Source: Candidatus Sericytochromatia bacterium
Lineage (GTDB): Bacteria > Cyanobacteriota > Sericytochromatia > S15B-MN24 > VGJW01
Assembly (NCBI GenBank): GCA_035285865.1
Contig: JAYKHS010000030.1
Location: forward strand, 121,643 to 185,642
Direction of reading: 5' to 3'
DNA length: 64,000 nt
Part shown: positions 51,001 through 54,000 of the stretch, in pieces
Position numbering within the stretch: position 1 is the stretch's first letter
How the letters are laid out: every line of letters starts with the position of its first letter
Made by a program: the position numbers

Positions 51001-54000
51001 GGTGGAGGCGGATGTCACGAAAGGAGCTCGCTCGCCACCCGAGAGCACCAGACCTCGTGGCGACCTCGCCATCGCGGCCATGCTGATGGGGACGGGGAGC
51101 GAGGGCAGGACCTGTCGAACATTGCCCTCCGAATCGATGCGTTCCACGTCACCGAGTCGAGCCGCAGGCGCGGTCCGCTCATACTCCTGCTCGACGACAA
51201 GTGAGTGTCCGCCCGCCACGAAGACGTCACGGCCATCGGCAAGCAAGCTGGTGTCGGTCTCGCGACTGGTGGGCACGACAGACGCCGTGCTTGCCGTCCA
51301 CGATCCGGACGCTTCCCGCACGAGCCATTGCCACGGGAGGGGGTCGCGTTCCCGGAGCCAGTACCCGGACAGGCTCCCGAAGGCCGGGAACGAATCGGCG
51401 ACGAGGGCCATCAGGCCAGAGGCTCCGTCGACGAGCAGCAGCGGTCGGTGACTGCCAGCTTCGAGTTGGCCGCTCTCGAGCGTCCAAGCGGCATCTGCCT
51501 TGCAAGCACCGTCGGAAAGGCCGAGCGAAGCCAGATAACCGGCCTGATCGAGCAGCCATATCCGATTTTCCTTGACCACTGCCATGGGGTTGCCGGACCT
51601 GAACGGCAGGTCGGGACCTCGAGACCACGTTGCTTCCGCACTACCGGTGTCGAGGCACCAGCAAGTGTCGTTGGTCTGCACGCTTCCGGCATCGCTCAGG
51701 GATCTGCCACCCATGACCCAGAGGCCGCCCGCCGCGGCGATGGCCGCAGCATGGCCCCGAGGGGCCGGCAGGTCGGGACCGCTTTCCCAGGCAGCAAGTG
51801 GCCACGAGGCCGTGGCCTCCCCACCTGCGGCAACGTCAACGGCCGTGGTCGCCACGACAATACCTGCCACGCCCATTTCCATGGTCAGTTCGAGGATGCG
51901 ACGACCTGGCGAGAGGCCCGTCCATCGCACGGAACGGCCATCCTGGGTACCGGCATCGAGGTTGTCGATGCCCACGGAGGTCAGATCATCGGCGCGCAGC
52001 GATGCTCTGGCCCCCTCAGGCCAGCCCCGGAACCCGAAGACCACACTGCCGGAGACAGGAGCGCGTGCCTCCTCCGGTTTGCGGCCCGCAAGCAGATCAG
52101 TCGCGATGCCGGAGACATCCAACAACCGCGGATGGCTCCCTGGAACGCGTGCCAACAGGTCCGAGATGGCTTCGCGCACCTTGGCCACCGTCTGCGTGGC
52201 AGGTATGCCAGAACCATTCCAGAACGCGCGCCATATGGCCGCGGCAGCCGTGCTGCGCTCATCAAGCTCCACGGATGCCGTCTCGCCAGAAATGAGCGTG
52301 GCGAAGCCGCCCCAGGGACGACGCGGTGAGCCGGACAGCTGTTCCCAGTCGAGCACCAGATCACCCGTCCCGGCGAGGTCCTCCACCTGCAGCTTCCCAC
52401 CGGTTTCGGGCAAGGTCACGACCTGGTCCAGAATCGACTCGCCATCGCGTGTCCAGATGCGTAGCCGGCCGGCACCACCGACAGACATGGGGATTCGGAC
52501 CTGCAGGGGGGCCACTGCGGCGTGATCCATCTTCGCTGCTGGCAGGACCGCCGGTCGGTGAGTCGGTACGGCACACCCGCTCTGGGACAGCAGCAGCAGA
52601 GTCGCGACGCCTACGCAGCGAGACAACTTGAATGGGCTCACCTTGCTGGTTGTACCCATCAATGCTGGATGCACGCACGTCGGGACGTCCGTGCAGGTAC
52701 ACGAACGTCCCGACGGACAGGATCAAGTGCTTGCAGGATACGGTGGCGGCTGCGACGTCACCGCACGCCGCGCCTCAGGCCCCGCAGACGGTCTCGATCA
52801 GGATTGCACAGACCTCGTAAGGATCCATGTTTGCGGCTGGCCGCCGATCCTCGAGGTAGCCGAAACCTTTCTGCGCGGTGCCCATGGGGATGCGAATGGA
52901 GGCACCGCGGTCGCTGACGCCGTAGCGGAACTGATGGATGGCACACGTCTCATGCTTGCCGGTCAGCCTTTCCTCGTTGTGTGCGCCGTAGACTGCGATA
53001 TGGGCATCGTGACGAAGGCGCAACTTCTCGCAGGCCGCCTCGATCGCCTTGATGCCGCCCGGCTCGCGCATGGCCTTGGTGCTGAAATTCGTGTGCGCTC
53101 CGGCGCCGTTCCAATCACCCTTGACCGGCTTGGGGTGCAGGGTTGCGTGGATACCGTAATCCTCGCCGACGCGATAAAGCAGCCAGCGCGCCAGCCAGAG
53201 CTGGTCGGCCTGTTCCAGGGCGTCCGTCGCCTCGAGCTGGAACTCCCACTGGGCCGGCATGACTTCGGCGTTGATGCCGCAGATGCCGATGCCTGCATCC
53301 AGGCAGGCCCGGGTGTGGGCCTCGACCATCTCGCGCCCGAGGGCCTCGTCGGCACCGACCCCGCAGTAATATCCACCCTGGGGGGCGGGAAATCCGCGGT
53401 CAGGCCAACCCAGCGGCCTGTTGCCCTCGAAGAGGGTGTACTCCTGCTCGATGCCGAACCAAGTCTCATGCGCGGCATGCCGTGCGGCCAGATCACGGAG
53501 CCGTGCCCGGGTGTTCGAGGCATGCACGGTGCCGTCCGGATTCATGACTTCGCACAGTACGAGGATGTTGTCTCCGCCTCGGATCGGGTCGGCGATGAAG
53601 CGCACGGGCTTCAGGGCACAGTCGGAAAAGTGTCCTTCGGCCTGGAAGGTGCTGGAACCATCGAATCCCCATCCCGGCAGATCCTCGACGGACACCACGG
53701 GGCCGGGCAGAATCATCGTCTTGGACCGAAGCTTGGCTGTGGGCTTCTGCCCATCGATCCAGATGTATTCGGCTTGAATCTTGTTCACGTGCGTACTCTC
53801 GGATTGGCCGGGGACAGCGGGGCTGACGGCCGTCCAAGATACCGAAATCCCAGCCGTGCGTCCACGGCCCACCACCTTGGGGTGGCGCGGAGTCCGGGCA
53901 GGTATGATCGCCGTGGATGGTTCCCCCGACCTGCCGTCCGCGGCCCGTTGCGCGCACGCTCGCTTTGGTGAGCGTGTCGCTTGCGATGCTTGCAGCCTGT

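What a model noticed while it worked through the whole genome (the two positions that open the first line are those of the whole stretch)
52775..53788. Sole glutamine synthetase is the eukaryote-like type II enzyme, and the PII signal protein is missing
The only glutamine synthetase gene is g02587, a 337-aa type II enzyme 63% identical to Streptomyces GlnII and 56-58% to yeast enzymes. The usual bacterial GSI is absent, as are PII (GlnB/GlnK), GlnD/GlnE and an Amt channel. The same holds for all four genomes of the genus, while a genome of the next genus has a typical GSI, so GSI was replaced by GSII here. PII, universal in oxygenic cyanobacteria and central to their C/N control, is lacking in most of the class.
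Evidence so far: NCBIfam equivalog glnII; Swiss-Prot hits over residues 3-337. Pfam: one gene with Gln-synt_N/C, none with P-II, GlnE, GlnD, Ammonium_transp. Six-frame search with PF00120: exactly 1 match in each of the 4 genomes of the genus, all weak (E 1e-15, model positions 4-157), against E 5e-137 over the whole model in a genome of the next genus. PF00543 (PII): 0 matches here and in the 3 other genomes of the genus (one 98% complete); 36 of 47 Sericytochromatia without a match, 4 with a strong one (E<1e-19); 13 of 14 control genomes ring.
(Added by a program. Inside this text positions count along the whole contig: contig position 121,643 is position 1 of the stretch shown here. "Call 12" and the like, gene names such as g00115 and contig names such as C1 are that model's own, and its searches are not shown. 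The text may have been shortened before it was handed on; [...] marks where a part breaks off. The agent that wrote the report below was given it as the finding of a first reader that could run no searches.)

Follow-up and report, generated by a model that had tools for sequence, protein, structure and literature searches.

The report
Swapped glutamine synthetase in nonphotosynthetic cyanobacteria
One genus of non-photosynthetic relatives of cyanobacteria replaced its usual glutamine-making enzyme with an ordinary bacterial type II version, and its whole class lacks the standard nitrogen sensor PII, which fits a life on ready-made organic nitrogen rather than a new mechanism.

Summary
Observation confirmed, interpretation corrected. 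Window 52775-53788(-) encodes an intact GlnII, the only glutamine synthetase in 4 of 4 genomes of the genus. The enzyme is not eukaryote-derived: its nearest relatives (up to 80-81%) are prokaryotic. GSII-only genomes are common elsewhere (28 of 50 outside GSII holders; 44 of 121 genomes of a Marinimicrobia-centred sample). PII loss is older and wider than the swap: 0 of 47 Sericytochromatia have canonical PII; the four 'strong' hits sit beside SbtA or DabA. The genus also lacks Amt, GOGAT, the small GDH, argB/argG, ilvD, hisD and purF, keeping a 1013-aa NAD-GDH. Best reading: an auxotrophic heterotroph fed on organic nitrogen, using GSII only to supply glutamine, with nothing left for PII to control. 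Most novel side result: oxygenic GlnB does not form one clade with sister-class PII proteins, so it may have been gained on the oxygenic stem.

The parts
52775..53788 (-). glnII, type II glutamine synthetase, 337 aa, sole GS of the genome
   Evidence: NF041605 522.9 bits over cut-off 500; best PDB match 4bax 460.7 bits over residues 4-336; motif residues D43, E114, E116, E175, E182, H232, R274, E280, R294, R299, E313, R315 invariant in all of the 90-91 aligned relatives that cover them; GC3 0.787, within the 0.73-0.82 of 12 neighbours
53810..53849 (-). about 40 bp upstream of glnII conserved in 3 of 4 genomes of the genus; possible promoter region, not tested
   Evidence: read by eye from the upstream sequences printed
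55938..56010 (-). tRNA-Gly(GCC), 3' end facing the glnII cluster; possible integration site
   Evidence: same place in 4 of 4 genus genomes, about 200 bp from glnII in G025; next to prfA also in G023 and G012, not called in the G022 and G027 loci; no glnII beside prfA in 4 of 4 outside loci
56081..58125 (+). prfA-prmC, conserved anchor of the glnII locus
   Evidence: NCBIfam over cut-off; syntenic in the 3 other genus genomes
53917..55875 (+). carboxypeptidase-regulatory-domain / propeller protein between tRNA-Gly and glnII; present in 3 of 4 genus genomes
   Evidence: Pfam; no match in the G025 locus
48099..52674 (-). two kelch-repeat proteins and a subtilase, co-oriented downstream of glnII; no evidence that they act with it
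   Evidence: Pfam; syntenic in the 3 other genus genomes; none found in the 78 outside glnII loci with up to 3 kb flanks
1..681 (+). 3' part of the LysM gene (preceded, outside the window, by an S9 peptidase gene) that is followed by a convergent glnA (GSI) in G027: the emptied GSI site
   Evidence: in G021 glnA converges directly on the S9 peptidase gene
615..1904 (-). MFS transporter gene that stands where glnA stands in G027; its 3' end overlaps the LysM gene, leaving no room for glnA
   Evidence: same S9-LysM-MFS order in G024, G025, G026

Best explanation
An ordinary bacterial GlnII was acquired horizontally from another prokaryote by the ancestor of this genus, probably beside tRNA-Gly, and displaced the ancestral alpha-type GSI (non-orthologous displacement). 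SHOWN: identity of the gene, its fixation and synteny in 4 of 4 genomes, absence of GSI and GSIII, closed ancestral site, prokaryotic nearest relatives, absence of canonical PII in 47 of 47 genomes of the class. INFERRED: the cell does not run an ammonium-scavenging GS-GOGAT cycle. It takes up amino acids, peptides and purines, breaks glutamate down with a large NAD-GDH, and uses GSII (glutamate + NH4+ + ATP to glutamine) only to feed the amidotransferases it still has, such as a GlmS-sized protein. With no Amt, NAGK, GlnD/GlnE or GOGAT there is no known PII target left, so PII is dispensable; PII was already missing before the swap, and any active GS would do.
For: GlnII over cut-off in 4 of 47 class genomes, all this genus, and in none of 354 other phylum genomes. 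GSI in 23 of 23 other genomes of the order; the sister GSI is alpha-type, 566-515 bits to one structure group against 323-292 to the other (group names recalled). Closed old site. Genus proteins 90-95% identical, one clade (SH-aLRT 99) inside prokaryotic GSII. Not found in the genus: Amt 0 of 4, GOGAT central domain 0 of 4, 420-450 aa GDH-family protein 0 of 4 against 23 of 23 in the rest of the order, and in 3 of 3 genus genomes tested argB, ilvD, hisD, argG, purF (each family rings in all 14 controls; purF is present in G022 and G027). 1013-aa protein with Bac_GDH_CD + ELFV domains, best structure an NAD-specific GDH. Canonical PII scores 100-115 bits; best class hit 81 bits, the top four beside SbtA or DabA and 17-24% identical to canonical PII.
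Against: All absences come from MAGs (G000 83% complete; G024 98%, G025 94%, G026 86%). Kin are not independent. No activity or expression was measured. The donor is unresolved: the branches around the genus clade are open, and the tree is the quick version without eukaryotic rows. Only six biosynthetic marker families were tested, and transporters for peptides were not. The direction of the large GDH is assumed from its family. A second glnA context (nadE-glnA-radA in G022, G023) is broken up in G000, with nadE about 1.2 kb from a contig end, so it gives no synteny test.
Confidence: 0.75

Rival explanations
1. GSII together with the large GDH forms a true ammonium-assimilation route (GDH makes glutamate, GS makes glutamine), with ammonia entering by diffusion.
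For: Both enzymes are intact and kept in 4 of 4 genomes. GDH is reversible in principle (established knowledge).
Against: No Amt. The GDH belongs to the large NAD-specific family, generally catabolic (recalled). Several amino-acid and purine pathways that would use newly fixed nitrogen are missing.
Confidence: 0.12
2. The swap is mechanistically tied to PII loss: without PII the old GSI could not be regulated, so an unregulated GSII was selected.
For: 20 of the 28 outside GSII-only genomes also have no PII match.
Against: 42 class genomes keep GSI-family genes with no canonical PII. 8 of the 28 GSII-only genomes have a PII match, and in three loci a PII gene lies directly upstream of glnII. 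Small incomplete genomes lack many genes at once.
Confidence: 0.07
3. GSI is present but unassembled, or glnII is a binning contaminant.
For: G000 is 83% complete; one class genome (G037, 90% complete) has no GS match at all, so misses happen.
Against: Same result in 4 of 4 genomes, one 98% complete; glnII lies on a 185-kb contig beside prfA-prmC with native GC3 and the same neighbours in all four; the old site is assembled through.
Confidence: 0.03
4. The gene came from a eukaryote (prey or host).
For: High similarity to eukaryotic structures, 426 bits to 3fky and 373-395 to plant and animal entries (organisms recalled).
Against: The bacterial structure scores higher (461 bits). The best 120 database hits are 71-91% identical and every one that carries an organism name is prokaryotic; 80 of 80 loci from genomes are prokaryotic, though that collection holds only prokaryotes.
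Confidence: 0.03

Closest known systems
Bacterial GSII (GlnII, GSIIB clade) of Streptomyces, Frankia and rhizobia
   Same: Same family by curated HMM, size and active-site motifs. A distinct eubacterial GSII clade is described in Bacteroidetes, Planctomycetes, Verrucomicrobia, Actinobacteria and Proteobacteria (PMC2978018, passages).
   Different: In Frankia GSII works beside GSI (10.1101/2022.05.25.493452, passages); here it is the only GS. Not found in 354 other genomes of the phylum sampled.
GSIII-only cyanobacteria (Pseudanabaena PCC 6903, Synechococcus RS9917)
   Same: glnA lost and another GS type is the sole enzyme (PMC6316151, passages).
   Different: Those use GSIII under NtcA control in phototrophs; here GSII, in a heterotroph without GOGAT, Amt or PII.
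PII-independent nitrogen metabolism of Ca. Pelagibacter (SAR11)
   Same: Bacterium without GlnB, GlnK, GlnD that leans on organic nitrogen (PMC3870248, abstract and passages).
   Different: SAR11 keeps GSI, GOGAT and AmtB and responds to nitrogen limitation; this genus lacks all three.
SbtB and other PII-like proteins
   Same: The class's best PF00543 hits sit beside SbtA (G012, G018) or DabA (G004, G027); SbtB is a non-canonical PII-superfamily protein linked to SbtA (PMC8042125, passages).
   Different: They are carbon-transport partners, not nitrogen sensors, and the genus of the window lacks even these.

Membership tests
GlnII (GSII) | Score over the curated cut-off of NF041605 | tested here: met
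   522.9 bits against 500, residues 4-337
GlnII (GSII) | Subunit of about 330-370 aa with beta-grasp and catalytic domains | tested here: met
   337 aa; PF03951 at 7-84, PF00120 at 104-237; full-length match to GSII structures of 344-423 aa
GlnII (GSII) | Metal, glutamate, ammonium and ATP-binding residues intact | tested here: met
   Twelve motif residues invariant in 90-91 relatives and matching the PDB alignments; their roles are recalled
GlnII (GSII) | Decameric assembly and ATP-dependent glutamine synthesis | not testable with these tools
   Needs purified protein
Eukaryotic GSII (GSIIE clade) | Nearest relatives eukaryotic | tested here: not met
   Named best hits are prokaryotic, 71-91% identical; bacterial structure ranks first
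Eukaryotic GSII (GSIIE clade) | Nests in the eukaryote clade of a GSII tree | not tested
   The tree holds no eukaryotic rows
GSI (GlnA) | TIGR00653 over cut-off, 440-470 aa | tested here: not met
   60.5 bits against 429; no other locus in G000
GSIII (GlnN) | GSIII_N domain, about 720 aa | tested here: not met
   PF12437 0 of 4 genus genomes; positive control G014 rings
Canonical PII (GlnB/GlnK) in the class | PF00543 score in the canonical range with T-, B- and C-loop motifs | tested here: not met
   Best class hit 81 bits against 100-115 for canonical; no NCBIfam PII model near its cut-off for 11 hits scanned; loops absent in the alignment
Canonical PII (GlnB/GlnK) in the class | glnK beside amtB | tested here: not met
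   No PII-like frame in 16 of 16 amt loci fetched, of 19 genomes with an Amt match; several loci end at contig ends
Glutamate synthase (GltB/GlsF) | Amidotransferase + central + FMN domains, about 1500 aa | tested here: not met
   PF04898 0 of 4 genus genomes, 14 of 47 in the class; the G000 protein is CDGSH + Glu_synthase only and has no counterpart in the 3 other genus genomes

The most novel reading that the evidence does not exclude
The 2-oxoglutarate-sensing PII system that is universal in oxygenic cyanobacteria was not inherited from the ancestor of the phylum but gained on the oxygenic stem: Sericytochromatia have no canonical PII (0 of 47, even where Amt is present), the other non-photosynthetic class has it patchily (21 of 251 at 90 bits or more) in at least five unrelated forms, and oxygenic GlnB groups with outside proteins. 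Alongside, a GSII-only, GOGAT-less nitrogen economy is a common and, in the papers searched, undescribed solution of streamlined heterotrophs, reached here independently.
Probability: 0.35. Interest if true: 0.65.

Novelty: new variant of a known kind. Interest (0 to 1): 0.4.

Why it matters
It documents a clean, datable displacement of a core enzyme (GSI by GSII) with both the old and the new site visible, and shows that bacterial GSII can apparently serve as the only GS in several phyla, where reviews list it as an extra enzyme of plant symbionts and streptomycetes. The class-wide lack of canonical PII makes a standing question testable: whether cyanobacterial C/N sensing arrived with photosynthesis. 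It does not reveal a new enzyme or mechanism.

Tried and rejected
Expression: one RNA run held 12% of the sampled words; laid as contigs it gave one 151-base piece identical to glnII and many pieces of other organisms: no evidence of expression or habitat. Earlier findings of the scan: nothing by place or words, two unrelated notes by sequence. Donor of glnII: quick tree of 91 rows leaves the neighbouring branches open; the careful search did not finish and was not resumed; the two Sericytochromatia-titled loci L026 and L027 were left out of the tree and of the outside set. A co-transferred neighbourhood: none of the window's flanking genes is beside glnII in 78 outside loci, apart from two generic kinase/ABC matches. 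Missing GlnD/GlnE as a sign of the swap: rejected, sister genera and Synechococcus lack them too. The large GDH as a co-acquired 'eukaryote-like' gene: rejected, G027 has a frame of the same kind and the relatives are bacterial. A hidden divergent PII in G000: a profile of six canonical PII gave no hit, and a broader profile with PII-like rows nothing under E 1.3. Vertical descent of oxygenic GlnB from one sister-class lineage is not excluded for two of three groups tested (p-AU 0.052 and 0.37; rejected for one, 0.002; groups named after seeing the tree). Paper searches that found no report of GSII-only bacteria or of PII distribution in the non-photosynthetic classes; one search gave nothing useful on the GDH class. 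No fold or complex prediction was run: the family is plain from sequence.

Full report
The gene. Window 52775-53788 on the minus strand gives 337 residues without a stop. It passes the curated cut-off of NCBIfam GlnII (522.9 against 500 bits) and is far below those of GSI models. Among solved structures the best match is 4bax (460.7 bits), then 3fky (425.7) and fourteen more at 395-372, while GSI structures score under 50 (that 4bax is a Streptomyces and 3fky a yeast enzyme is recalled). Twelve motif residues known from GS active sites (roles recalled) are invariant in all 90-91 aligned relatives that cover them. GC and GC3 match the neighbours.

Is it the only GS? PF00120 in six frames finds one weak match in each of the 4 genomes of the genus, the glnII gene itself; 42 of the other 43 genomes of the class have a strong match, including 23 of 23 in the same order, and G037 has none. 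Some matches in the two distant families (E 1e-70 to 1e-97) may be GSI-like enzymes rather than true GSI; I did not sort them. Nine GSI proteins of relatives, run by tblastn against G000, find nothing else below E 0.1. The GSIII domain is missing in 4 of 4, with a positive control. The GlnII model is over cut-off in 4 of 47 class genomes, all of this genus; G029 has a more distant GSII (448 bits, 59% identical) beside GSI-family matches. In a sample of 401 phylum genomes only these 5 have GSII.

Old site and new site. In G027 the order is S9 peptidase, LysM protein, convergent glnA; in G021 glnA converges on the S9 peptidase. In G000 the S9 and LysM genes lie at the very start of this window and an MFS gene overlaps the LysM 3' end (window 615-681), with no room for glnA; G024, G025 and G026 show the same order. 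G022 and G023 keep glnA in another context (beside nadE), which is broken up in G000 and gives no test. The displaced enzyme was alpha-type: the G027 GSI scores 566-515 bits against one group of structures and 323-292 against the group that holds the enteric and Synechocystis enzymes (names recalled). glnII lies 53 kb away, between tRNA-Gly/prfA and a kelch-kelch-subtilase cluster, in 4 of 4 genomes. tRNA-Gly stands by prfA in G023 and G012 too, and none of 4 outside prfA loci holds glnII; integration at the tRNA is plausible, not shown.

Origin. The best 120 database hits are 71-91% identical; those with organism names are Sericytochromatia, Myxococcota, Acidobacteriota, Deltaproteobacteria and Uhrbacteria. 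The 80 best loci from named genomes add Marinimicrobia, Binatia, Chloroflexota, other Patescibacteria and two Thermoplasmatota archaea. In a quick tree of 91 rows the four genus proteins form one clade (SH-aLRT 99) within these; the neighbouring branches are open, so no donor can be named; G029 falls outside on a long branch. A separate eubacterial GSII clade is in print (PMC2978018, passages), GSII in Euryarchaeota is mentioned (10.1101/2021.11.08.467771, passages), and many bacterial GSII were noted in marine metagenomes (PMC3379637, passages). 'Eukaryote-like' therefore overstates the case.

How rare is GSII-only? I gave 50 of the 78 outside loci, picked by hand for long contigs and spread of taxa, to a whole-genome search: 28 of 50 have no other GS, among them 7 of 8 titled Marinimicrobia, 8 of 8 Patescibacteria and 2 of 2 archaea (completeness not shown; the set is chosen for holding GSII). 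In 121 genomes of the phylum of G067, 44 have only a weak GSII-type match, after setting aside 4 whose weak match is GSIII-sized; 3 have none (I asked for 90% completeness, but the output gives no figures). Of those 44 I fetched 20, and 20 of 20 are full-length GSII, 51-73% identical to the window protein. So the state is common outside this phylum. My searches found no paper that says so; a review lists bacterial GSII only for Frankia, rhizobia and streptomycetes and describes GSIII-only cyanobacteria (PMC6316151, passages). The 2022 GS phylogeny in Evolution was not held and may cover this.

PII. 11 of 47 class genomes have a PF00543 match, best 81 bits. Canonical PII scores 100-115 bits and is present in 85 of 85 sampled genomes outside the Sericytochromatia families and the two non-photosynthetic families f9 and f27 (photosystem I was checked in 5 genomes only: present in 1 of 1 of the 85, absent in 3 of 3 from f9/f27 and in G027). 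The four strongest class hits lie beside SbtA (G012, G018) or DabA (G004, G027), and others beside RND, DUF1538, SbtA or export genes; none comes near an NCBIfam PII cut-off, and the top four are 17-24% identical to canonical PII. No PII-like frame lies in 16 of 16 amt loci fetched. Hence 0 of 47 canonical, and the loss predates the GS swap. PII-free bacteria are known (SAR11, PMC3870248, passages). GlnE and GlnD are absent from GSI-bearing relatives and from the Synechococcus control as well; cyanobacteria control GS by IF7/IF17 instead (PMC8042125, passages).

The sister class. Twenty-one of these proteins, with 8 oxygenic and 17 outside ones, need at least 4-5 label changes on a careful tree; they are at most 58% identical to oxygenic GlnB, which reaches 68% to an outside protein and groups with outside rows (99/96). 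One clade for the whole phylum is rejected (p-AU 5e-49). Against the bold reading: descent through one lineage is not rejected for two of three groups (p-AU 0.052, 0.37), the alignment has 102 columns, and the outside set is a narrow convenience sample. Searches for this in print found nothing relevant; two papers on sibling lineages and one on Lake Tanganyika genomes did not treat it in the passages seen.

How it works. The genus lacks Amt (0 of 4), the GOGAT central domain (0 of 4) and the 420-450 aa GDH-family proteins that 23 of 23 other genomes of the order have. The Glu_synthase-domain protein is CDGSH + FMN domain only and peculiar to G000. What remains is a 1013-aa NAD-GDH. argB, ilvD, hisD, argG and purF were not found in 3 of 3 genus genomes tested; argB, ilvD and argG are also missing in G022 and G027, hisD is present in G027 and purF in both. 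A 630-640 aa amidotransferase, GlmS by size (inferred), is kept. I infer a multiple auxotroph living on organic nitrogen: glutamate comes from food, surplus nitrogen leaves through GDH, and GS only has to supply glutamine for a few amide transfers. In such a cell neither PII nor a finely regulated GSI has work to do, and a GSII can take over. None of this physiology was measured.

Verdict. Real, well supported, and explained by known processes: horizontal gain of a known enzyme and displacement of its analogue in a reduced heterotroph. The enzyme is a plain member of GlnII; the GSII-only, PII-less configuration is a variant not found in the papers searched but common in the data. Interest 0.4; the class-wide PII result is the part most worth following.

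Noticed in passing
L052, L058, L063 about 2520-2890 (+): In three Marinimicrobia-titled loci a PII gene lies directly upstream of glnII, a glnB-glnII arrangement in genomes with no other GS match.
   Followed up: partly
L135-L150: Sixteen Sericytochromatia amt loci have no glnK; in G009 amt lies directly beside the large GOGAT gene. How these channels are gated is open.
   Followed up: partly
L011-L014, L021: Non-photosynthetic Sericytochromatia carry inorganic-carbon transporter modules: SbtA with SbtB-like genes (G012, G018, G034) and DabA with a PII-like gene (G004, G027).
   Followed up: partly
L005:1495-2577 (-): G029, another family of the class, holds a divergent GSII (59% identical) beside GSI-family genes: probably a second, independent gain.
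   Followed up: partly
L117:2331-5372 (+): 1013-aa NAD-glutamate dehydrogenase of an intermediate size class; outside the class its relatives are about 40-43% identical, named ones from Bdellovibrionota, Oligoflexales, Planctomycetota and Acidobacteriota; no close solved structure.
   Followed up: partly
L062, L084: Two Thermoplasmatota archaea with a bacterial-type GSII as their only GS match.
   Followed up: partly
window 45244-47979 (-): Two proteins of 529 and 377 aa with signal-peptide-like starts and no Pfam or NCBIfam match, conserved in the genus (77-86% and 52-73%).
   Followed up: no
window 43450-45198 (-): B12-binding radical SAM protein below all NCBIfam cut-offs, 70-82% conserved in two genus genomes.
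   Followed up: no
L124:1396-3084 (-): CDGSH iron-sulfur + Glu_synthase FMN-domain protein found only in G000 among the 5 genomes tested; function not examined.
   Followed up: partly
G037 (class search): A 90% complete genome with no GS match at all; probably an assembly gap.
   Followed up: no
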